Shown here one piece after another: positions 2,585 through 64,000 of a stretch of DNA of 64,000 bases. The first letter of the stretch is position 1, and each line of letters starts with the position of its first letter. The notes under the pieces are model-generated. The model was not told the origin of the DNA, searched no databases, and worked only from the letters and a program-made list of their open reading frames with translations. This DNA is from Bacteroidales bacterium. GTDB lineage: Bacteria; Bacteroidota; Bacteroidia; Bacteroidales; WCHB1-69. Where the stretch lies: positions 3,574 through 67,573 of the forward strand of contig JAEEQA010000005.1 in assembly GCA_016285085.1 (NCBI GenBank), in the 5' to 3' direction. The position numbers and the translations under genes are program-made.

Positions 2585-3367
2585 ATGTTCTACATATATT
2601 TATATGTGATGATAGCGATTGCTGTCGTCGTGTTCATTGCCTTGTATTTTGTGGAGGCCGGCTACGGCATGCTGGTCTCCTCCCGTTGGGGCAAGCTCAT
2701 CAACAACAAGGTGGCGTGGTTCTTTATGGAATTTCCCATCTTCGCGGCCATGGCGGGACTGTGGCTGTTCTCGCCGCACCGGTTCGCCATCGTGCCGCTC
2801 ACATTCTTCGTCATCTTTGAAACCCACTATTTCCAGCGGGTCTTCATCTTCCCTTTCCTGATGAAAGGCAACAGCAAGATGCCTGTCGGAATCATGCTCA
2901 TGGGGATGGCGTTCAACATCCTCAACGCCGCCATGCAGGGCTACTGGATATTCTACGAGTCCTACAACGTGAACTATTCCGCTTTTGGGCTGACCTACAA
3001 CGACATCGAGTGGCTTTGGTCGCCATGGTTCCTCATAGGGCTGTGTTTGTTCATCGGAGGTTTCATCACGAACCTGCACTCCGACTACATCATCCGGCAC
3101 TTGCGCAAGGACCCGTCCGACACGCGGCACTACCTTCCGAAGGGCGGAATGTTCAACTACGTCACCTCCGCCAACTACTTCGGCGAGCTGATGGAATGGC
3201 TGGGCTTTGCCGTCCTCACGTGGTCGCTGTCGGGCCTCGTCTTCTTCATTTGGACTGCCGCGAACCTCGTTCCCCGAGCCAACACACTGTACCACAAGTA
3301 CCAGATCGAGTTCGGTGACGAGATGAAAGGCCGCCGTCTGAAGCGGGTGATTCCGCTGCTGTATTAA
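2585..3367 (+). CDS. 3-oxo-5-alpha-steroid 4-dehydrogenase (steroid 5-alpha-reductase family)
   Basis: Polytopic membrane protein with AGYG, AWFFME, HYFQR, NLHSDYIIRHLR, PKGGMFNYVTSANYFGE and ANLVPRA motifs. Confidence 0.88.
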   Translation: MFYIYLYVMIAIAVVVFIALYFVEAGYGMLVSSRWGKLINNKVAWFFMEFPIFAAMAGLWLFSPHRFAIVPLTFFVIFETHYFQRVFIFPFLMKGNSKMPVGIMLMGMAFNILNAAMQGYWIFYESYNVNYSAFGLTYNDIEWLWSPWFLIGLCLFIGGFITNLHSDYIIRHLRKDPSDTRHYLPKGGMFNYVTSANYFGELMEWLGFAVLTWSLSGLVFFIWTAANLVPRANTLYHKYQIEFGDEMKGRRLKRVIPLLY

Positions 3368-3481
3368 CAGGATAGGGACGTTTGACAGGAGAGGGGATCC
3401 TTAGTCAAGCAAAAAAGTGTGCCCTTTTTTATGTAGAAGTTTTAGAATGCGTATCTTTGCGCCCTCATTTCAAGAAACCGT

Positions 3482-4984
3482 ATGAACCTCTATACACAGA
3501 AAAAACGATGGAAATGGCTGCTGTTCGTGTCGGCCCTCGTTGTGTTCCTCGTCATGATTTACTATTCCAACGTGCTGTTTAACAGCATCGCCCGCGAGGA
3601 ACGGCAGAAGGTGAACCTGTGGGCGGAAGCGGTGACGCAGAAAGCACAGTTGGTGAACTACACCAACCACTTCTTCGACGAGGTGAAGGCGGAGGAGGCG
3701 AAACGCGCCACGCAGATGGCGAAGGTCATCAAGAAAGTGTTTGACGCGCCCCTCGATGAGGACCTCACCTTCTACGTTGATATGTTGCAGGAAAACAAGA
3801 CCATCCCGCTGATCATGGTGCAGATGGACGGCAGCATCAGCTACACCGCCAACGTGCCGGAGGAAATCGGCAAGATGAAAAACATCTCTGAACTTGGTGA
3901 CGAAATCAACTCGTTCGAGCAGCTCAAGGTCTATTACGACCGCCCCAAATACGTGGTGATGTACTACCGTGAATCGAAAATCTACACCGATCTCCGCGAG
4001 TACATGGAAAACCTGCAGGAGTCGTTTTTCGAGGAGGTGGTCATCAACACGGCCTCCATCCCCGTCATCATCACCGACAGCACCGAACAGCGCGTGGTCA
4101 TCTCCGGCAATGTCGATTCCACGCAAATCGCCACGCCCGAAGGGTTGCGCCAGCTGGTTGCAAAGATGAAGTCATCGAACAAGCCCATTGAAATCGACCT
4201 TCCCGACCAGGGGCACTGCTACGTCTTCTATGAGGAGTCGCCCATCCTGACGAGATTGCGCTATTTCCCGTACATCCAATTCTTTATTGTCCTCGTTTTT
4301 GTCATCGTGGCGTACCTGCTGTTCAGTTTTGCCCGCCGCTCCGAACAGAACCGTGTGTGGGTGGGCATGTCGAAGGAGACGGCGCACCAGCTGGGCACAC
4401 CCATCTCGTCGCTGATGGCATGGACGGAAATCCTGCGCGAGAGCGACGTCGATCCCTCCATTGTGGGCGAAATCGACAAGGATGTCCACCGGCTGGAAAC
4501 CATCGCGCAGCGGTTCTCCAAAATCGGCTCCGTCCCGGAACTCAAGGACGAAAACATCGTGGAGGTGATCGACCAATTCACCAATTATCTCCGCACCCGC
4601 ATTTCATCGAAAACCACCCTCATCTTCAACGCTGCCGACTATCCCGAGATTGTTCTGCCCATCAACCGTTATCTTTTTGAGTGGGTCATCGAGAACCTGT
4701 GCAAAAACTCCGTGGATGCGATGGAGGGCGACGGGGTCATCGCCATCAACCTGATCGATGACAAGACGCACGTCCACATCGACATCACCGACACGGGCAA
4801 GGGCATCCCGCCGCAGAAGCAGAAGACGATTTTCAAACCGGGCTACACCTCCAAAAGCCGCGGCTGGGGCCTGGGGTTGACACTCGCCCGCCGTATTATC
4901 AAGGAGTACCACAAAGGCAACCTGTTTGTCAAATCCTCCATCGTGGGCAAAGGCACTACCATGCGGATCACGCTGAAACGGTAA
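3482..4984 (+). CDS. Membrane sensor histidine kinase
   Basis: Two TM segments; H-box ETAHQLGTPISSL, N-box ENLCKNSVDA, DTGKG, GWGLGL; TATCTTTG promoter box at 3452-3459. Confidence 0.93.
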   Translation: MNLYTQKKRWKWLLFVSALVVFLVMIYYSNVLFNSIAREERQKVNLWAEAVTQKAQLVNYTNHFFDEVKAEEAKRATQMAKVIKKVFDAPLDEDLTFYVDMLQENKTIPLIMVQMDGSISYTANVPEEIGKMKNISELGDEINSFEQLKVYYDRPKYVVMYYRESKIYTDLREYMENLQESFFEEVVINTASIPVIITDSTEQRVVISGNVDSTQIATPEGLRQLVAKMKSSNKPIEIDLPDQGHCYVFYEESPILTRLRYFPYIQFFIVLVFVIVAYLLFSFARRSEQNRVWVGMSKETAHQLGTPISSLMAWTEILRESDVDPSIVGEIDKDVHRLETIAQRFSKIGSVPELKDENIVEVIDQFTNYLRTRISSKTTLIFNAADYPEIVLPINRYLFEWVIENLCKNSVDAMEGDGVIAINLIDDKTHVHIDITDTGKGIPPQKQKTIFKPGYTSKSRGWGLGLTLARRIIKEYHKGNLFVKSSIVGKGTTMRITLKR

Positions 4985-56196: not shown

Positions 56197-59100
56197 TTAC
56201 TCCCCGCAGTAATTTTTGACACATCGGATGCTCAACCCGTAGTTTTTCTGCTGCGGGTCGGTTTCCATATCGCAGAACGCGGGCATGACGACGGACGTGG
56301 ATGCGGGGTTGCGGGTGATGTCCACAGCCCAGAAGGCGGCGCTGGTCATCAGGCTCTCGTAGCGGCCAAGGGCGGCATTATAGATGCCTCCGCCCCGGGC
56401 GTTGAACCCGGAGTTGGGAGTCGCGCCTTCTGTGTCCGGAACCCAGAAGCGGGTGTCGGCCTCCTTGACTAGGGCCAGCCTTTCGCCGGCGTTGAAATAG
56501 AGTATCTCGAAGTCTTCAACGGTGGGCACGCCCCAACCCTCGGGGCAGATGCCCTGCACGAAAGTCCGTGCACCGTCGGTCGAGAGCAGCGGCACGGCAA
56601 GGTCGTCGTTCTCAGGCACGCGGGCGGCGGAATACCAGCTGTAGAGGTATCCGTACAGGTCGCGGAGCGAGTCGCTGCCGTTGTAGGAGCTGTAACTGGC
56701 GACGGGGGTTCCGTCGGAGTAGAAGGCACTGCGGATGTTGGTCTGCGTCCAGCACTGGCATCCGATGCGGATGGCGGGATAGACGTTGCCTTCAAAATCG
56801 ACGGCGTCGTTGCAAGGGGGCAGCACTCTCACGCACTGCGTGCAGGTGACGGTGTCGCCGCACTCGTTGACGGCCGACCACGTGACGGTGTGGTCGCCGA
56901 GCGGGTACCTGCCGTCCGAAGGGGCGTTGTTGAAGAGGGTGTCCGGCGTGAACGAGGTTGTCGGTATGCCGAGTTCGGAGGCGGTGATGAGGACGTGGGT
57001 TTCGCCGTCCGCCAGCCCGCGCACCACGGTGTCGGGGCAGGAAAGCCCGGTGGAGGGGGCGGTAACGGTGAGCAGCAGGCGGACGACGCTGTCGCAGCCG
57101 TTGGCAGCGGTGAACACGGAGTCGATTACATACTCTCCGGGCACGGAAATGTCGATGTTGTTGAACCCTTCGTAGGAGAGGAGGACGGTGTCGGGGCAGG
57201 TGCTGTACACGAACAGCGTGGTGTCCAAAGCAGGCTGTACGTACACGGAGGCTTTCGCCGGTGTGAGGTTGGCTTCAACATCGGTCGTAATGCTTCCGCT
57301 CCATCCGTCCCTTCGATAGTAAGTTCCAGAATTGAAATACACATGCAATTTACCCGATGTGGAGGTGAATGTACGGGGCGCGGTGAAACCTTGGCTAAAG
57401 TAACCCAGCGAACGAGCACGCCAACTATCACCGTCATAGACAGCGAATGTGCCAATCCCGGTGTAGACATTGAGATAATCCATGGTCAGCACCACCTGCG
57501 CTCCCTCTTCTGCCACAAAAGTGTGATGATAGGTTTTATAGGCGGTATACACACCGTCAGGTCCGCCGTCGTCATAAAACGGAATGGAGTCCATATACGC
57601 CACGATGGTGGTTTGGTCGTTTTTTGAGTCGTTGAGAAGGAAATCTCCGGTCACGTTCTTGCGGAAAGCCTCCTTCCGGTAGGGGCAGGTCGTCCGGTTT
57701 GAAACGGAAACATAGAGTGTGGTGTCCGTTGTCAGGCTGGCAAAATTCAGAAGGGATATGTTTCCCGAGGATACGGTGTCGCAAAGAAGCACGCTGTCAA
57801 GCGAGGCGTTCCACCACTCGTAATACTGCGGGAGTTCAATGTCCGAAGAGGCAGAGATGGTGGCAGATTTCCCGAAGCAGATGGAGTCGTTGGTGGTGGT
57901 CACAAGAGGCAGATACGGCATCGTATATACCACTTTGACGGGTGTGGTCTCAGGAAGGCAGTTGCTGTCATTGTCCACCTTCACATAATAAGTGAAGGTG
58001 TTCAAAACATTAGGCAGGGAGAGCCGTGCCATCTCCGCTGCTGTATGAAGTGTGTCCGACTGAATGAGATGGTTGTGGGTGTCGTCGTACCAATTGAAAT
58101 ATTGTGGGAAGGATATTCCTGCGATGGGGTTTGCCGACAGGGTTGCCGTCTGCATATAGCAGACGGTGTCGGGAATAACGGTCGGTTGCGCGTAGGAGTA
58201 AGGGAAAGAGAAGAATTGTGCCGTGTCCTCGTCTGCCTGCCGTGGGTTTCCGTTCCAGTCCCAGTCGCCATAGACCACATCCGTTGCGGCATCCCCATAC
58301 AGGCACGACCAGATCTGTGCTTTGGGAATGTAGGTGGTGTATGATGTAGGTAGCGAGGAAAGTTTCATATTGAAGGGGAAGGTGACGCTGTCGCCGGGAG
58401 CGATATTGCTGATGTTGTATATGCCGCGATAGGTGTCATTGAAGGCACAGTTCTGCGGAAGCCGCAATCGGACAGACACTTCGCTTGCGGCTCCGGTGCC
58501 AGCGTTGCGGACAGTGAGCTTGCCAGTATAGATTTCGCTGCAGTGTTGGGGCGGATCCATTTCAAGTGTCAGCGAGAGACGTATGTCGGAAACGGGAATG
58601 TAGTAGTATGCGGTATCTTTCTCATTGCAAGCGTCGGGCGAACGGTCGGCAACGGCCACGCGTACATACAAGCTTTCTGTGAGAGGATCGAGCCGGAGTT
58701 CGGAGGTGTCGGTGGCTTCCGTGAGTGCAGGAATCCAGTTCGTTTCATCGGTGGATGTTTCCCATGTGTATTGATAGAGGACACCCCGCCCGCCCGAAGC
58801 GGCGGCCTGCAGGGTGACATCCCCGTTGTAGCGGAAAGGTGCAGGAGTGAGGGAAGTAATTGCCACTTTAACACTGTCCAATGCCTTTGCTATCGCATTG
58901 ACTGTTTCAAAGTCACTTCCGATTTGCGCGTCCCATCCCGCTGAAGTACTATATAGATTGGAGAGGAACCACAGGGTCATGCTGCTCCCGTTGGATACGA
59001 TGGGCGCGGGCAGACGGGTGTTCAGATTTCCCGTCAGTTCGGCAATCAGTGAGTCGGGATGAGTGGTGTCGCCTGAATAGACCAGCAGCTTGTCAGGAGA

Positions 59101-62100
59101 TTCTACTGAAAAACTACTGAATATCAATGTAATAGGAGTGTTATCTGTGGAAAAGAAGGTATGTTTGACACTCTCATTGTTGCGATATTCACCCTCGTTG
59201 CCGCCAGAGTCGCGGAACAATATCGATTTGCCGCATTCAATCGAAGTGTTTCCGGCTGCCATGTTCATTTGCGAGAAAATGGTCTGGGGATGGGATTCGC
59301 AGTATTCACTGTTCTCGGCGGTGACATAAACTGCAGTGTCTTCTGTAAGGCCGAAGAAATGGAAGTCTGCATAATCGGTGGCTGACGAGATGATATCCGA
59401 CCGCAATAACTGTTGGTGATTATTGTCTCTGTACCAGTGCAATGTATAAGGAGGTGTCAGGGAGGAGCGGGCATGGACGGTCGCGTCATCCCCTTGGCAG
59501 ACAGTGTCGTGAAGGGCGGAAACCATACAAGAGGAGGCATACCTTGTGCGCAGTGTAATATGCACCGTGTCTTCCGGGATGGTATAGGTGCAGTTGTCGT
59601 CCTGCACACTATGGACCCAGAAGATTCCTTCAGAGTAGGGAACGTAGGAGTGTCCGCTGCTGTTGGTATAGTTCTGGAAGGTGGTTCCCGAAGGCTGCTG
59701 GTGTCCGATGGTGTAGTGTACATCCCCGACCCCGCTGGACGTGTAGGTGAGCGATACTGTGTCGCCGGGGCATATTATGGCATCATCGGCGATATGCACG
59801 GACGGAGCGGGTTTGACTTGGATCGAAATGCTGTCTTCGACGATACCGCACCCTGTGCCTGAAAACTGCACCTTGTAGGTGCCGCCGGATGCGCCCCTCT
59901 GCAAAAACAAGGAGGTGTCGCGTGCCGCGCTGGCAAAGCCGTCAGGCCCTTCCCACCGATAGATCACGTCATCCCCGAAATTCAGGGAATTCAGGTGGAC
60001 AAGAGTGCCTTCACATTCTTCAGATGCATACACCCCTCCACCAAGCCAGCACTTGTGTAGGTTCTCCAAGTCATGGACAGTAGTGTTGACATGGAAACTG
60101 GCGAGGCACTGGTCAATGCTCTCCACGCTTACCACCTGGCCGCTGCGGACGGGCACGTTGTCGAACCGTCCGGTCTGGTTGGAAGCGAGCAGGGTGCCTG
60201 TCTTGTCGGGACCGGAATAGAGGTTGTAGGTGTAGGGGGCGGTTCCGTTGATACTCTTGACACGCACGAAACCCTCGGTCGATGCTGCATTGCAGGTATA
60301 GGCGATGTCGTATTCGTGTTCAACGGTTCCGCCGGAAAAGTAGATAGTATCGTCTATGTGGTAAGAGTCACTCGACGGGCACTCATCGGCATACATCCTT
60401 ACCACATAGGTTCCAGGACGAGTCAAGGTAACAATATTATGCGCAAAAAAGCGACCTGAAGGATATCCTCCTGGAGGTCCTGAAACGATTTTGTACAGTG
60501 CCCCATACCGACTAATATAGTCAACAGAGTCCCTGTGTACGTTTTCGGTGCCATTAAACAGGACGGGCTCGCGGATGATGAATTCACCCGAAAGGGGGCG
60601 GAGAATCAGTTCACTGCATTGGTTAGTCAGTTCATAGCTGGGCATTTCCGACGGGATTATACGGATACCATAATCGTTAAGATAACGGAATGTGTCCACT
60701 ACAGACTCTGTGCAGCCAGGGAAGGAGCTGCGGAACACATAGAAGCCTGAAGGAAGTCCGTAGTCTCTGAGTATAATTGTACGGTTTGAAAGGTTGGTTA
60801 TAATCTCGGAAAGGCACTCCGGATGCTCCTTTGCAATGGTCCAGCTTCGTGCAGCGTGGCTGTATTGTGCCGTGAAATTGTAAAAATTGTCATACGGACT
60901 CTCAATCAGTTCTAACATATAACCGTCGTTATATTGCATAGGAACTGTAATTATGGGATCTATCGTCATAGCTTTGATGGAATTATAGCAAGAATATCGC
61001 ATCCCTGCATAAACAGGACTGAATTTCATAGCTCCCCTCGCCGACATCTCTCCTCCGGTTGTCGTAATCCTTTGGTTGAAATCAAAACGAATGCTGTCGC
61101 GTGCCACGGGGCAGTTCTTGCTATCCACAAGCTGAAAGTAGAGGTACGGGGTCATATTCTCTGCAGTATCAAGGAATGCCAGTGCTTCTTCGCGGGTGAC
61201 TATCAAAGGATAATATTCACGGGTACTGATCCTTTTATCATAGTAGGTCCCCGTTTTAACGGTGTCCCCGTCAGCGGTTGTACATAGCCAGCTGAGGGCG
61301 CCTGTGTAATATTCTCTGCGGTAAGAACTGGCACCAGCGGTGCAACTGTTGGACGGTGCAACGATATGTGTCAAACCATTGGTTGTACCGGCACGTACCG
61401 CCTGCATGCTCACATAGGATACCGTTCCCGCAGCTTTTTCAATAAAGCAGTCTTGATAACTGTCAACAGCAATGGTGGAATCTGTTCCGTAAACATCTTC
61501 TTTCATTTGGCGCAGAGACTCTATGTTGTTCTGGAATGAATGGGTCATCTGGTGGGTGTATCCATTGCATCCGACCGTTCTTGTCTCTAATGTTATTGTA
61601 CCTCTGAGGTCGCAATAGCTGCGCGCACGCCATACGGTGTCGTACACATCACACGACACAGTTTGAATGTGTTGGCTGTATGTGTAGCGATCTCTATAAC
61701 GATATGGCCCGCCGGGGTGCTTCCATTCCGTGGTGTCGACAACACCGTCGATTTCAGGATAGATGAAGCGGTATTCTATATTTTGCGGAATACGGGTTGA
61801 ATAAAACCCGGGGTCAGCATAGATTTCCAGATATATCCTGATCACGTTTGAATCTGCACTGTTGCCCGTATAGTTGTACCAGCACACTTTTTCCACATAG
61901 GGATAATCAACGGTAGTGATACGCCCATTGACTATAGGCATTACATAACCGCAGCCGTCCGACACAATGAAAGAGTACTGGCCTGCACCTAACCCGTCAA
62001 TGGAATAGTAGTCCTTATAGTCATATCTCTGTTCATTACTTCCTGTGTACATCCTTTCTGTGAATACCACCGTGTCGATGGGATTCAACCCCGCATCGCA

Positions 62101-62619
62101 GATGACTACCTGATAGGGGAGTGCACCGTTTCTGATGAGCAATTGTACACGCCCTGTGTTTTCGCATGCGAACGTGGGTACAGTGCCAAAGGCTGTTTCA
62201 TTCTTCGGAATGTTGGTTAAGAATGACGCAGAGGGTGTCACGTAAGTGGTGGTGGTGGTCACGGTGGTGGCGGTGTCGATACGGGTGTAAATCGTGTCTC
62301 CTACCCCCTGGACATACTTGCAGACGGCCTGTACACCCGCCTTATAGGTGCTTGCTCTCACGAAAAATTCATTTGAGAAGGAAAGGCTGGTGTCCGAAGA
62401 GTGCTCTTCAATGACGTAGTATTTCACGTCTTCCAAATCCGTGCTGGAGATGTCCAGTGGCTGTCCCGCGCTGTCCACAAGATTGATTTGGATTTTGCAG
62501 TTGTTGTAGCAAGTACCCTGTTCGGTAATCGCATTGATACGAAACTGACAATTGTTCTGTGCATTCAGTGTAAGAATGCACAGAACAAAAAGAAAGAAAA
62601 GCGAATACTTTTTCATCAA
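56197..62619 (-). CDS. Giant secreted multidomain protein (Ig-like repeats, two CUB-like domains, HYR-like domain, C-terminal FISUMP domain)
   Basis: Signal peptide ending NAQ; FRDSGGNEGEY and FYDDGGPDGVY CUB-like starts; repeated DTVC units; DFEGNVYPAIRIGCQCW, GICPEGW and SIRCVK motifs. Confidence 0.82.
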   Translation of the reverse strand: MMKKYSLFFLFVLCILTLNAQNNCQFRINAITEQGTCYNNCKIQINLVDSAGQPLDISSTDLEDVKYYVIEEHSSDTSLSFSNEFFVRASTYKAGVQAVCKYVQGVGDTIYTRIDTATTVTTTTTYVTPSASFLTNIPKNETAFGTVPTFACENTGRVQLLIRNGALPYQVVICDAGLNPIDTVVFTERMYTGSNEQRYDYKDYYSIDGLGAGQYSFIVSDGCGYVMPIVNGRITTVDYPYVEKVCWYNYTGNSADSNVIRIYLEIYADPGFYSTRIPQNIEYRFIYPEIDGVVDTTEWKHPGGPYRYRDRYTYSQHIQTVSCDVYDTVWRARSYCDLRGTITLETRTVGCNGYTHQMTHSFQNNIESLRQMKEDVYGTDSTIAVDSYQDCFIEKAAGTVSYVSMQAVRAGTTNGLTHIVAPSNSCTAGASSYRREYYTGALSWLCTTADGDTVKTGTYYDKRISTREYYPLIVTREEALAFLDTAENMTPYLYFQLVDSKNCPVARDSIRFDFNQRITTTGGEMSARGAMKFSPVYAGMRYSCYNSIKAMTIDPIITVPMQYNDGYMLELIESPYDNFYNFTAQYSHAARSWTIAKEHPECLSEIITNLSNRTIILRDYGLPSGFYVFRSSFPGCTESVVDTFRYLNDYGIRIIPSEMPSYELTNQCSELILRPLSGEFIIREPVLFNGTENVHRDSVDYISRYGALYKIVSGPPGGYPSGRFFAHNIVTLTRPGTYVVRMYADECPSSDSYHIDDTIYFSGGTVEHEYDIAYTCNAASTEGFVRVKSINGTAPYTYNLYSGPDKTGTLLASNQTGRFDNVPVRSGQVVSVESIDQCLASFHVNTTVHDLENLHKCWLGGGVYASEECEGTLVHLNSLNFGDDVIYRWEGPDGFASAARDTSLFLQRGASGGTYKVQFSGTGCGIVEDSISIQVKPAPSVHIADDAIICPGDTVSLTYTSSGVGDVHYTIGHQQPSGTTFQNYTNSSGHSYVPYSEGIFWVHSVQDDNCTYTIPEDTVHITLRTRYASSCMVSALHDTVCQGDDATVHARSSLTPPYTLHWYRDNNHQQLLRSDIISSATDYADFHFFGLTEDTAVYVTAENSEYCESHPQTIFSQMNMAAGNTSIECGKSILFRDSGGNEGEYRNNESVKHTFFSTDNTPITLIFSSFSVESPDKLLVYSGDTTHPDSLIAELTGNLNTRLPAPIVSNGSSMTLWFLSNLYSTSAGWDAQIGSDFETVNAIAKALDSVKVAITSLTPAPFRYNGDVTLQAAASGGRGVLYQYTWETSTDETNWIPALTEATDTSELRLDPLTESLYVRVAVADRSPDACNEKDTAYYYIPVSDIRLSLTLEMDPPQHCSEIYTGKLTVRNAGTGAASEVSVRLRLPQNCAFNDTYRGIYNISNIAPGDSVTFPFNMKLSSLPTSYTTYIPKAQIWSCLYGDAATDVVYGDWDWNGNPRQADEDTAQFFSFPYSYAQPTVIPDTVCYMQTATLSANPIAGISFPQYFNWYDDTHNHLIQSDTLHTAAEMARLSLPNVLNTFTYYVKVDNDSNCLPETTPVKVVYTMPYLPLVTTTNDSICFGKSATISASSDIELPQYYEWWNASLDSVLLCDTVSSGNISLLNFASLTTDTTLYVSVSNRTTCPYRKEAFRKNVTGDFLLNDSKNDQTTIVAYMDSIPFYDDGGPDGVYTAYKTYHHTFVAEEGAQVVLTMDYLNVYTGIGTFAVYDGDSWRARSLGYFSQGFTAPRTFTSTSGKLHVYFNSGTYYRRDGWSGSITTDVEANLTPAKASVYVQPALDTTLFVYSTCPDTVLLSYEGFNNIDISVPGEYVIDSVFTAANGCDSVVRLLLTVTAPSTGLSCPDTVVRGLADGETHVLITASELGIPTTSFTPDTLFNNAPSDGRYPLGDHTVTWSAVNECGDTVTCTQCVRVLPPCNDAVDFEGNVYPAIRIGCQCWTQTNIRSAFYSDGTPVASYSSYNGSDSLRDLYGYLYSWYSAARVPENDDLAVPLLSTDGARTFVQGICPEGWGVPTVEDFEILYFNAGERLALVKEADTRFWVPDTEGATPNSGFNARGGGIYNAALGRYESLMTSAAFWAVDITRNPASTSVVMPAFCDMETDPQQKNYGLSIRCVKNYCGE

Positions 62620-62762
62620 TAATTCATTTTAGTATGGAAGTATCTTGCCTCTTAGAATTTATTGCTTCTAATTTGTATATAATTCATAGTGTCTCCACAT
62701 AGCTCCTCCACTTCTATGTCCGCAACCCGTCCTCACAATCCCTATCTATACCCATTCACAAA

Positions 62763-62879
62763 ATTCCGGTTTCTCGCTGGTAGGAGGCTCTGCAAAACCT
62801 ATTATGACGAGAATACCGGAATATTTATAGCTGTTGGCCATGGTTGTTGCAGATGCGTTATGCGAACGTATCTGCAACA
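62763..62879. other. Two stem-loops directly downstream of the last FISUMP gene
   Basis: attccggtttctcg...cgagaataccggaat (62763-62822); tgttgcagatgcgtt-atgcg-aacgtatctgcaaca (about 62845-62879). Confidence 0.75.
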
Positions 62880-62907
62880 TTTTCATATCTGATTTTCCCC
62901 CATCCCG

Positions 62908-64000
62908 CTAATCTCGCACACAACGGACGGATAACCCGAAGTCCTTGGGGTTGGAGTTCCGGGCCATGCCTGCGTTGTTGTAGTTCAAGCCCCGCATCCA
63001 CACGCTGCCACTGGTGTTGGTGTACTGCGAGGAAGACCAGAAGTAGGCGCCGTTGCCCGCGTAGCCGAAGAAGGTGGTGAAGATGCCAGCAGGCACGGCG
63101 GAAAAACCGGATTCATTGCGTTCCGCATTGGCATAGTTGCCGGCAGCATTCTCCGTGCTGCTGCTTGACCAGTCACAGCCCGTGGAGAGCTTGCCCGCAT
63201 GACTGCCGCGATAGGTAACACTTGCTGTTTCATAGCTTGCCTGCCAATCCGAACCGCTCACTTGACTCTCCATCGCGTTCCACTCCACATCGGTGGGCAC
63301 ATGCCAACCAATAGGACAGACACCTTGATGGTTGCCGGAAGGATTGAAGTTAAAAGAATTGTTGTTGTATGAACCATAGGCCACTTCCACATAGGCTCCC
63401 GGGTTGGCCGTGTCCATGGCCGCACACCAGTTGTAGAAGAGACCGTAACGTTTGGCCTCGTAGGTGGACTGGTCGTTACTGTACCACGCGGCCATCTTGC
63501 TGCCGTAGGAATTAACAGCAGTGACCACAAGGTTGCTCCCTGTCTTGGGCGAGTGCGACACCCGCAGGTTCTCGGCCAGCCAGCACTGGCTGCCAATCTG
63601 AACAACGGGATAAGCGTTTCCGTCGTAGTCCGTCACCGAGGTGATTTTGCCGGAACCGTTGACGGTCTCCAAGCCGTGGTTTGCGCCGCTATGGCCGTTG
63701 CCCGTGTAGGCACTGCCGGTTTGTGCCGCGTGGCTGCCGACATCGCAGGGCTTCACCGTGCGGTCGGCCGCCGTGGAGCCGGGAACGTTCACCGGCATCG
63801 TCACTTTGGCCCTGCAGCCGGAAGAGTTGGTGGCGACAATGTCGTAGATGCCGCTGGCGGTGTAAGTGTTGCTGGTGCTGTTTGCGGTCACCGTGCCGCT
63901 GTATGGCATGCTTCCGTCACCCCAGTCAATGCTGTTGGGGCTGCCGCCCACGGTCCTCACGGTCACAACACCGTCCTTCTCGCACAGGCCGAGAGACACG
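62908..64000 (-). CDS. FISUMP-domain protein with a PKD-like domain (5' end outside window); candidate DGR target
   Basis: IDWGDG..YTASGIY PKD-like motif; DYDGNAYPVVQIGSQCWLAENLR, GVCPIGWHVP, FWSSS and GLSVRCVRD motifs. Confidence 0.88.
   Translation of the reverse strand, partial: VSLGLCEKDGVVTVRTVGGSPNSIDWGDGSMPYSGTVTANSTSNTYTASGIYDIVATNSSGCRAKVTMPVNVPGSTAADRTVKPCDVGSHAAQTGSAYTGNGHSGANHGLETVNGSGKITSVTDYDGNAYPVVQIGSQCWLAENLRVSHSPKTGSNLVVTAVNSYGSKMAAWYSNDQSTYEAKRYGLFYNWCAAMDTANPGAYVEVAYGSYNNNSFNFNPSGNHQGVCPIGWHVPTDVEWNAMESQVSGSDWQASYETASVTYRGSHAGKLSTGCDWSSSSTENAAGNYANAERNESGFSAVPAGIFTTFFGYAGNGAYFWSSSQYTNTSGSVWMRGLNYNNAGMARNSNPKDFGLSVRCVRD

What the first reader, a model, noticed from the sequence alone, without database searches (positions are those of the whole stretch)
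62845..63110. FISUMP gene ends in a DGR-like variable region with downstream hairpins but no local template or RT
Seen: from 63084 towards the stop, about 34 of 49 codons end in C, against about 22 of the preceding 60 (hand count). They form runs such as ATC TTC ACC ACC TTC TTC GGC TAC, TAC ACC AAC ACC, AAC TAC AAC AAC and AAC TCC AAC CCC between fixed scaffold codons (FWSSS, W-x-R, GLSVRCVRD). A 15-bp stem-loop starts about 29 nt after the stop. Established: DGRs mutate adenines of AAC-rich template repeats, producing NNC codons in C-terminal C-type-lectin-fold domains, and a downstream hairpin aids retrohoming. Inference: this is a target diversified in trans or from a cassette beyond the window edge. 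The other two FISUMP genes do not show the same local pattern as clearly. Caveat: core genes of this host are also rich in C-ending codons.
Basis: partly seen in the sequence, partly recalled or inferred. Interest (0 to 1): 0.75.

Follow-up and report, generated by a model that had tools for sequence, protein, structure and literature searches.

The report
Orphan DGR-written tip of FISUMP gene
The last 66 codons of this rumen-bacterium surface-protein gene carry the mutational footprint of a diversity-generating retroelement, but the template and reverse transcriptase that write such regions are missing from this genome, so it is most likely a frozen leftover of a known system.

Summary
From 63084 to the stop, 34 of the first 49 codons end in C, against 22 of the preceding 60. 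The excess sits only at the 18 codons that align with AAC/AAT codons of two real DGR template repeats from sister species. There 17 of 18 are NNC, against 9.5 expected (P=4e-5). The other 46 codons are at background, 20 against 20.1. This gene ranks first of 35 FISUMP C-termini in the genome.

A congener (G010) carries a complete cassette on a homologous FISUMP gene: target, VR, TR, accessory gene and RT, with 16 of 16 TR-VR mismatches at TR adenines.

This genome (94% complete) has no RT, no accessory gene and no template. Contigs from three studies carry the same VR, including a 6-nt tandem duplication. A fourth strain has a 192-nt allele whose differences favour template-A sites. Another assembly carries a paralog's tail instead.

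The hairpin is real but ordinary for gene ends.

Verdict: a DGR-written VR, probably orphaned. It is a new member of a known kind. This scan has noted orphan FISUMP VRs before on other DNA.

The parts
62911..63108 (-). DGR-type variable region: the last 66 codons of the gene (GFSAVPAG ... SVRCVRD). It equals the 64-codon (192-nt) VR/TR family of congeners plus a 6-nt duplication.
   Evidence: Codon alignment to TR of G010:C78 and TR of G004:C2. NNC at 17 of 18 template-AAY sites, P=3.8e-5, with the other codons at background. Rank 1 of 35 paralog ends.
63012..63023 (-). Tandem duplication ACACCA x2 inside the VR. It makes this allele 198 nt instead of 192 nt.
   Evidence: locates it. The X9 allele lacks 6 nt here, while the X1, X2 and X4 main contigs keep it.
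62908..62910 (-). Stop codon TAG of the FISUMP gene.
62914..63603 (-). FISUMP (Fib_succ_major) domain with a C-type-lectin/FGE-like fold.
   Evidence: Pfam 3.8e-34. TIGR02145 9.8e-31. Genome hit C3:66487-67176. Model pLDDT 87.8; TvpA 2y3c Z 8.3.
62908..64000 (-). 3' part of a large secreted surface-protein gene. It is 1074 aa in another assembly and has a signal peptide, NCDDVNDC-type repeats, fn3 and FISUMP. It runs off the window and the contig.
63078..63214 (-). Box shared with paralog C12:54503-54639 (86% over 137 nt; encodes GSHAGKLSTGCDW...GNYANAERN). It is the junction of the tail swap seen in another assembly.
62899..62935 (-). 3' box (SVRCVRD codons plus 12 nt after the stop). It is shared with the C12 paralog and with a mosaic relative in a metagenome contig.
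   Evidence: 93% over 29 nt to C12:54325-54353. (97% over 37 nt to L025).
62845..62879 (.). Hairpin with 15 pairs (one mismatch) and a 5-nt loop. The T-run follows it on the + strand side. Its role is unresolved; it is probably a terminator-like gene-end structure.
   Evidence: and control. No Rfam family match.

Best explanation
The last 66 codons of this FISUMP surface-protein gene are a variable region that was written by a diversity-generating retroelement (DGR).

How such a region is written: a template repeat rich in AAC codons is transcribed and reverse-transcribed with errors at adenines only. The cDNA then replaces the 3' end of the gene. The result is NNC codons in the ligand-binding loops of a C-type-lectin-like fold.

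In this genome the writer (template repeat, accessory gene, reverse transcriptase) is absent. The region is most likely an orphan that is now static. It has since changed only by ordinary events:
- a 6-nt tandem duplication;
- a few point changes;
- in another strain, wholesale replacement of the tail by recombination with a paralog.

Shown: the footprint, the homology to real cassettes, and the lack of writer in the assembly. Inferred: that the writer is truly lost and not merely unassembled.
For: (1) A congener has a complete cassette on a homologous gene. In G010:C78 a 623-aa FISUMP target ends in SVRCVRD. Its VR is 2407-2598 and its TR 2933-3124, and 16 of 16 mismatches fall at TR adenines. 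An accessory ORF and an RT follow (RVT_1, 61.6 bits).

(2) Our VR is that 64-codon family plus a 6-nt duplication.

(3) At the 18 codons where both known templates have AAC/AAT, ours has 17 NNC against 9.5 expected (P=3.8e-5). The other 46 codons have 20 C-ending against 20.1 expected. This is rank 1 of 35 FISUMP ends.

(4) Template-A sites are changed more often than other sites: 31/56 against 37/136 versus the G004 template (Fisher 4e-4) and 31/58 against 41/134 versus the G010 template (Fisher 0.003).

(5) A natural allele (run X9, a 2271-nt contig) has 19 of its 34 substitutions within 62932-63075, and the flanks differ by about 1%. Rebuilt in a script, it is 192 nt and has 18 of 18 NNC. 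It differs from the window allele at 20 sites, 13 of them where a related template has A (64 of 192 sites; Fisher 0.002).

(6) The fold model (pLDDT 87.8) best matches the DGR variable protein TvpA: Z 8.3, rmsd 4.1, 175 aligned. FGE, Lcl C-terminal domain, Mtd and TaqVP follow.

(7) No writer was found.
- No RVT_1 match.
- No tblastn hit better than E 1.9 for 4 RTs and 2 accessory proteins of congeners.
- No template by blastn or by the A-biased repeat scan.
- The A-tolerant scan finds at least 50 violations in 192, while positive controls give 0 and 2.

(8) Signs of stasis. Contigs of X1, X2 and X4 (three studies) carry the window's VR with 0-2 differences and the duplication. One template-AAY site holds ATG, which A-mutagenesis of AAC cannot give.

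(9) Decay of such cassettes is seen in the genus.
- G004:C2 keeps VR and TR (31 of 34 mismatches at A) and a truncated accessory gene, but no RT in 11 kb.
- Of 16 VR-like family members found, 10 lie in five genomes without any RVT_1 match.
Against: The assembly is a 132-contig MAG, 94% complete, and DGR repeats often break assemblies. Contig C3 starts inside another VR-like gene end. An unbinned cassette therefore cannot be excluded.

I spent my single scan of metagenome contigs on a 3'-end pattern. It found only one mosaic relative and no template.

The own template is unknown, so the A-only rule could be tested only against heterologous templates. Non-A sites differ from these by 27-31%. 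That is more than for the likeliest VRs of congeners, at 10-19%.

Two alleles with about 99% identical flanks imply that writing happened recently within the species. This fits a still-present writer as well as a recent loss.

Logan contigs drop rare variants, so an identical dominant allele in three studies does not exclude low-level diversification.

Seven of the 20 allele differences lie at sites where neither heterologous template has A.
Confidence: 0.6

Rival explanations
1. The VR is an active remote target. A DGR (template, accessory gene, RT) exists in this organism on a contig that was not assembled or binned, or beyond the contig end, and rewrites this VR in trans. This is what the first reader proposed.
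For: The MAG is 94% complete in 132 contigs. Both ends of contig C3 break inside FISUMP genes, and the start is itself a VR-like end (C3:35-226, gap-free to the G010 template, A sites changed 57% against 20% for other sites). Two alleles with about 1% flank divergence differ mainly at template-A sites, so writing was recent. Remote targets are documented: 45 of 372 DGRs have non-adjacent targets (PMC5758913, passages read).
Against: No RT, accessory gene or template appears anywhere in 2.58 Mb. The same VR with a 6-nt duplication is the assembled allele in three studies. One template-AAY codon is ATG. In 62.9 kb downstream of the VR there is no cassette, whereas in the genus cassettes that were found the TR follows the target within about 350 nt.
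Confidence: 0.27
2. No DGR was ever involved. The tail is an ordinary fast-evolving ligand-binding loop region of a large paralog family. It is shaped by diversifying selection on ancestral Asn-rich (AAC) loops and by recombination between paralogs.
For: Recombination among paralogs is real. One assembly's ortholog (P0243) is identical to P0124 (whose tail equals the window's) for the 200 aa before the shared box and identical to paralog C12 for the last 100 aa. L025 is a mosaic relative. The X9 allele shares several variant bases and the site of its 6-nt gap with paralog contigs of X2 and X4. Outside the VR, 8 of 9 changed codons between alleles are non-synonymous, so selection acts on the whole domain.
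Against: Ordinary evolution would also randomise third positions. Yet 17 of 18 template-AAY sites keep C while 12 of those 17 have changed at positions 1-2. The other 46 codons sit exactly at background. Of the other 34 paralog ends, 32 show no such footprint (P of at least 0.14), C109 reaches 15/18 (P 0.01) and C3:35-226 reaches 13/18 (P 0.056). The segment has the length and scaffold of a family with proven TR-VR pairs.
Confidence: 0.08
3. The C-ending codons reflect general codon bias of highly expressed or core genes.
For: The gene-wide C3 is 0.51 and some other 50-codon windows reach 0.66-0.72. Long ORFs across the genome average 0.40.
Against: Given the amino acids, only the template-AAY sites are enriched. 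The remaining 46 codons of the same segment have 20 C-ending against 20.1 expected.
Confidence: 0.02

Closest known systems
DGR targets of 'category d' with CLec2-type VRs (motifs DUF1566 / DUF823 / Fib_succ_major), exemplified by Legionella LdtA (Wu et al. 2018, PMC5758913, passages read). Fib_succ_major targets also occur in human microbiomes (Ye 2014, PMC4159848, passages read).
   Same: The VR occupies the last ~64 codons of a C-terminal FISUMP/C-type-lectin-like domain of a secreted surface protein. It has NNC codons at template AAC sites and the scaffold FWS...R...SVRC.
   Different: No cognate template, accessory gene or RT is in this genome. The VR carries a 6-nt duplication and a non-NNC codon at a template-AAY site.
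The complete DGR cassette of congener G010:C78 (locus L019) and the RT-less VR-TR remnant of congener G004:C2 (locus L036).
   Same: The same protein family, with a similar signal peptide and N-terminal region (my reading of the sequences printed; not aligned or scored). The same 64-codon VR frame and the same C-terminal SVRCVRD.
   Different: G010 has TR, accessory gene and RT within 2.7 kb downstream. G004:C2 keeps TR and a truncated accessory gene. Ours keeps only the VR. Ours differs from those templates at 27-31% of non-A sites, so its own template was a different member of the family.
Solved DGR variable proteins TvpA (2Y3C), Mtd (1YU0-1YU3) and TaqVP (5VF4), and the Legionella Lcl C-terminal domain (8Q4E).
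   Same: The predicted fold of residues 1-237 of the domain aligns with all of them: Z 8.3, 7.0, 6.5 and 7.0.
   Different: No sequence-level match to any PDB chain. Foldseek E-values are all above 0.1. The Z values are in the range that the tool calls middling.
VR-only 'partial DGRs' / DGR fragments, and orphan FISUMP VRs noted earlier by this scan on other genomes (e1-2134818, e1-5120703, e1-2145790).
   Same: A DGR-type VR without a writer in the genome.
   Different: A different organism and gene. Here there is also allele-level evidence, a post-writing duplication and a paralog tail swap.

Membership tests
FISUMP / Fib_succ_major domain family (PF09603, TIGR02145) | Match to the family profile above the curated cut-off | tested here: met
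   PF09603 scores 119 bits against a cut-off of 33.9. TIGR02145 scores 107.8 bits against a cut-off of 41.65.
DGR variable region (target of a diversity-generating retroelement) | A cognate template repeat that differs from the VR only at the template's adenines | tested here: not met
   None in the 2.58-Mb assembly: blastn, A-biased repeat scan, and an A-tolerant scan with at least 50 violations in 192 where controls give 0 and 2. None in 40 relatives by BLASTN. Not testable in the unassembled remainder of the genome.
DGR variable region (target of a diversity-generating retroelement) | A DGR reverse transcriptase in the same genome | tested here: not met
   PF00078 gives 0 matches, with 94.16% completeness. 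tblastn with 4 congener DGR RTs gives a best E of 1.9.
DGR variable region (target of a diversity-generating retroelement) | An accessory (Avd-like) gene next to the template | tested here: not met
   tblastn with the accessory ORFs of G010 and G013 gives a best E of 3.1. These ORFs match no Pfam or NCBIfam family, so only homology to them was tested.
DGR variable region (target of a diversity-generating retroelement) | Adenine-specific mutational footprint (NNC codons at template AAC sites; scaffold unchanged) | tested here: met
   Tested against two heterologous templates of the genus: 17 of 18 NNC, P=3.8e-5, with the other codons at background. Rank 1 of 35. A sites against other sites, Fisher 0.003 and 4e-4.
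DGR variable region (target of a diversity-generating retroelement) | VR at the C-terminus of a C-type-lectin (or Ig) fold ligand-binding domain | tested here: met
   The VR is the last 66 codons. The model has pLDDT 87.8. The top structural rows are all of the CLec/FGE fold, with TvpA at Z 8.3.
DGR variable region (target of a diversity-generating retroelement) | Sequence variation between or within populations confined to the VR at template-A sites | tested here: inconclusive
   One divergent allele (X9) fits: 19 of 34 substitutions lie in 144 nt, and 13 of 20 differences lie at related-template A sites. But three studies share one VR, and only contigs, not reads, were available.
DGR variable region (target of a diversity-generating retroelement) | Target-recognition elements: IMH at the VR 3' end and a nearby GC-rich hairpin (features recalled from the BPP-1 literature, not read here) | tested here: inconclusive
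   A hairpin exists 28 nt after the stop, but 12 of 24 control gene ends fold as well. The proven VRs of G010 and G004:C2 have their hairpin 13-14 nt after the start of the stop codon, with no sequence likeness to ours. IMH cannot be defined without the template.

The most novel reading that the evidence does not exclude
DGR-written tails behave as exchangeable cassettes in this FISUMP family. Conserved boxes flank the VR: GSHAGKLSTGCDW...GNYANAERN upstream, and the SVRCVRD codons plus about 12 nt after the stop downstream. Homologous recombination at these boxes would move VRs between paralogs and strains. Genomes that have lost the reverse transcriptase would then keep reshuffling a repertoire that a DGR once made. 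Alternatively, a writer carried on a mobile element would refresh it only occasionally.
Probability: 0.12. Interest if true: 0.55.

Novelty: new member of a known kind. Interest (0 to 1): 0.3.

Why it matters
The finding marks one more surface adhesin-like protein of an uncultured rumen Bacteroidales bacterium whose binding tip was shaped by targeted hypermutation.

Within one genus, the whole decay series of such elements is visible:
- a complete cassette;
- a VR plus TR without RT;
- a VR alone.

Orphan VRs matter for annotation and for DGR surveys that start from the RT gene, because those surveys miss them. The footprint test used here (NNC at sites aligned to AAC codons of a related template, corrected for amino-acid-specific codon use) can find them without the cognate template. 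Otherwise the feature is an ordinary example of a described system.

Tried and rejected
- blastn of 62845-63300 against the genome found only paralog C12 (86% over 137 nt upstream of the VR, 93% over 29 nt at the 3' end). Its tail differs by indels and non-A changes, so it is not a template.
- The genome-wide self-BLAST for repeat pairs with at least 75% of mismatches at A or T gave only short (50-85 nt) low-complexity pairs, none near the VR.
- BLASTN of the gene's 3' 1380 nt against 40 relatives found no ortholog of the VR.
- My one scan of metagenome contigs, with the 21-nt 3' end, gave 3 loci. Two were chance matches and one a mosaic relative (L025). No template appeared.
- Protein searches for more alleles (near, longer, shorter lengths) gave one cluster of 4 members and no further VR variants of this gene.
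- Rfam on 62400-63200 gave only a chance miRNA hit, E 0.68.
- phmmer against PDB sequences gave no match. Foldseek against PDB gave no match with E at or below 0.001.
- I considered the hairpin as a DGR recognition element and dropped it as evidence after the control.
- I first favoured ordinary paralog divergence (note). I gave this up after finding the congener cassettes and the site-specific footprint.
- A first offset for the G004:C2 VR was out of frame. That row is disregarded.
- PMC11661182 was searched for 'incomplete', 'remnant', 'inactive', 'lost', 'rumen' and 'Fib_succ' and holds none of these words.

Full report
**What is there.** The finding lies at the 3' end of a minus-strand gene. 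Its stop codon is at 62908-62910, and the ORF runs off the window and off contig G000:C3 (at least 882 aa here). A 100%-identical 1074-aa protein from another assembly shows the full gene. It has a signal peptide, a region of NCDDVNDC-type repeats whose copy number differs between assemblies, an fn3 domain, and a C-terminal FISUMP domain. The FISUMP domain scores PF09603 3.8e-34 and TIGR02145 9.8e-31. The genome is a 2.58-Mb, 132-contig, 94%-complete MAG with 40 FISUMP matches. Runs that hold the stretch are ruminant gut metagenomes.

**Check of the observation.** The hand count is exact. Of the first 49 codons from 63084, 34 end in C, as do 36 of all 58 to the end, against 22 of the preceding 60. 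Raw C3 is not in itself exceptional: the gene-wide value is 0.51, and other 50-codon windows reach 0.66-0.72. Among 34 FISUMP domains of this genome, however, this one has the highest C3 in its last 58 codons (0.64 against a mean of 0.38) and the largest jump from the 60 codons before. The hairpin at 62845-62879 is real: 15 pairs with one mismatch, loop of 5, DNA z = -3.5.

**No writer in this genome.**
- PF00078 finds nothing in the assembly, while its controls ring.
- blastn of the region finds only paralog C12. That paralog shares a box upstream of the VR and the last ~29 nt, but differs between them by indels and non-A changes.
- A genome-wide scan for repeat pairs with A-biased mismatches finds nothing convincing.
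- tblastn with four DGR RTs and two accessory proteins from congeners gives no hit better than E 1.9.
- An A-tolerant scan counts only positions where a candidate is neither the VR base nor A. It recovers the known templates of G010 and G004:C2 with 0 and 2 violations. For our VR it finds nothing below 50 violations in 192.

**The decisive context: real cassettes in the same genus.** RVT_1 matches occur in 5 of 18 other genomes of the genus.
- G010:C78 has a 623-aa FISUMP target ending in SVRCVRD. Its 192-nt VR and its TR lie 334 nt apart, and all 16 mismatches are at TR adenines. An accessory ORF and a 398-aa RT follow.
- G002:C121 and G004:C37 hold two further DGRs, with 19 of 19 A-mismatches each.
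- G004:C2 holds a decayed cassette of the G010 type. It has a VR and TR with 31 of 34 mismatches at A and a truncated accessory gene, but no RT within 11 kb.
- Fib_succ_major/DUF1566 targets are a documented DGR class. This is Wu et al. 2018, category d with CLec2 VRs (PMC5758913, passages read), and Ye 2014 (PMC4159848, passages read).

**The footprint.** Our tail is the 64-codon frame of that family plus a 6-nt tandem duplication (ACACCA x2, 63012-63023).
- At the 18 codons where both known templates carry AAC/AAT, ours has 17 NNC codons, 5 of them still AAC. From the genome's codon use for the same amino acids, 9.5 are expected (P = 3.8e-5). The other 46 codons have 20 C-ending against 20.1 expected. 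This disposes of the codon-bias caveat.
- The same test on all 35 FISUMP C-termini ranks this gene first. C109:3071-3676 (15/18) and C3:35-226 (13/18 NNC, 17/18 NNY) follow. The remaining 32 have P of at least 0.14.
- Template-A sites are changed in 31 of 56-58 cases, against 37-41 of 134-136 for other sites (Fisher 4e-4 and 0.003).
- Non-A divergence (27-31%) is higher than for the likeliest VRs of congeners (10-19%). The own template was therefore a different family member.

**Alleles.** Contigs of four runs from four studies were laid on 62300-64000.
- X1 (0 differences over 62619-63137), X2 (2 substitutions and a 12-nt insertion over 62904-64000) and X4 (2 differences over 62899-63145) carry the window's VR, including the duplication.
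- X9's 2271-nt contig covers 62344-64000 with 34 substitutions. Nineteen lie within 62932-63075 (144 nt) and 15 in the remaining 1513 nt. It also lacks 6 nt at the duplication.
- Rebuilt in a script, that allele is 192 nt, has no stop and has 18 of 18 NNC at template-AAY sites. It differs from the window allele at 20 sites, 13 of them where a related template has A (64 of 192 sites; Fisher 0.002). Several changed codons are doublets that keep the third C.
- Two independent DGR outputs therefore exist within about 1% flank divergence. The window-type allele is nevertheless fixed in three studies. It carries a duplication that a homing event from a 192-nt template would erase, and one ATG at a template-AAY site.
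- Contigs hide rare variants, so low-level activity is not excluded.

**Recombination.** A third form exists. P0243, from another assembly, is identical to P0124 (whose tail equals the window's) for the 200 residues before the shared GSHAGKLSTGCDW box and identical to paralog C12 for the last 100 residues. The C12 tail has no footprint (12/18 at AAY sites; 12/46 at the others). A metagenome contig (L025) is a mosaic relative. It shares the N-terminal modules and a 37-nt 3' box that extends 12 nt past the stop. An assembly chimera cannot be ruled out for the 3728-nt contig behind P0243.

**Fold.** An AlphaFold2 model of the domain (29-sequence alignment, pLDDT 87.8, pTM 0.88) has no Foldseek match at E of 0.001 or below. 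VIA-align puts TvpA first: 2y3c, Z 8.3, rmsd 4.1, 175 aligned. FGE-fold proteins follow, then the Lcl C-terminal domain (Z 7.0, 24% identity), Mtd (Z 7.0) and TaqVP (Z 6.5). The Z values are middling by the tool's own note, but every top row is of the C-type-lectin/FGE fold.

**Hairpin.** Of 24 other FISUMP gene ends in this genome, 12 fold to -17 kcal/mol or better within 70 nt of the stop; ours gives -18.2. Its T-run lies on the + strand side. The proven VRs of G010 and G004:C2 have a longer hairpin that begins 13-14 nt from the start of the stop codon and has no likeness to ours. The hairpin's role in DGR targeting is recalled from the BPP-1 literature and was not read here. It is not evidence either way.

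**Genus picture.** A search of 19 genomes with the G010 template gave 18 distinct 192-nt family members in the loci examined. Two are template-like, with 20-21 Asn codons and no stop after them. The other 16 are VR-like. Ten of these lie in five genomes without any RVT_1 match (G001, G003, G008, G009, G017). VR-only ends are thus the commonest state in these MAGs, whether by loss or by poor assembly of cassettes.

**Verdict.** The idea of a working writer in trans is not supported by any sequence available. The most likely state is an orphaned, now static VR (about 0.6). An unassembled active DGR is the main rival (about 0.27). This is a new member of a known kind. The scan has already noted orphan FISUMP VRs on other genomes (e1-2134818, e1-5120703, e1-2145790), and I did not test those notes.

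Noticed in passing
G000:C3:35-226 (+), 3.3 kb before the window's first base, at the contig start: A second orphan VR-like FISUMP gene end. It is gap-free over 192 nt against the G010 template, with A sites changed 57% against 20% for other sites, and 17/18 NNY at template-AAY sites. The sequence just after its stop looks similar to that after the stops of G004:C5 and G013:C78 (read by eye from the listing). No template was found in the genome.
   Followed up: partly
G000:C109:3071-3676 (-), outside the window: A third FISUMP end with a weaker NNC footprint (15 of 18, P=0.01) and the second-largest C3 jump (0.60 against 0.35).
   Followed up: no
L036 (G004:C2:49000-60000, reverse complement) 2986-4172: A decayed DGR cassette in a congener. 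The VR and TR have 31 of 34 mismatches at A, and the accessory gene is truncated (residues 9-137 of 247). No RT lies within 11 kb.
   Followed up: partly
window 63076-64000: Between the window and the X9 allele, 8 of 9 changed codons outside the VR are non-synonymous, and two are doublets. This suggests selection or patchy recombination across the whole FISUMP domain.
   Followed up: no
window 63397: An in-frame insertion polymorphism. Contigs of X2, X4 and X9 carry 12 extra nt here, and one X4 contig carries 21.
   Followed up: no
window 62757-62822 (intergenic, between the FISUMP gene and the 2140-aa gene 56197-62619): A ~65-nt stretch conserved at 83-84% in two congeners (G014:C19:38939-39003 and G007:C20:71019-71080). 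In G014 it lies about 225 nt beyond the 3' boundary of the BLAST match to a related FISUMP gene. No Rfam match.
   Followed up: no
gene N-terminus beyond the window (G000:C3:67574-69130; P0124, P0241, P0243): Repeats of ~35-70 aa (NCDDVNDCVATAIADGNS.IN.AIDTVV) differ in copy number between assemblies (1074 against 1144 aa), and the contig breaks inside them.
   Followed up: no
L025 (metagenome contig), whole locus: Two tandem genes of the same family. The first shares near-identical fn3-region modules with our gene but has a different FISUMP domain without NNC bias. It nevertheless ends in the same 37-nt 3' box.
   Followed up: partly
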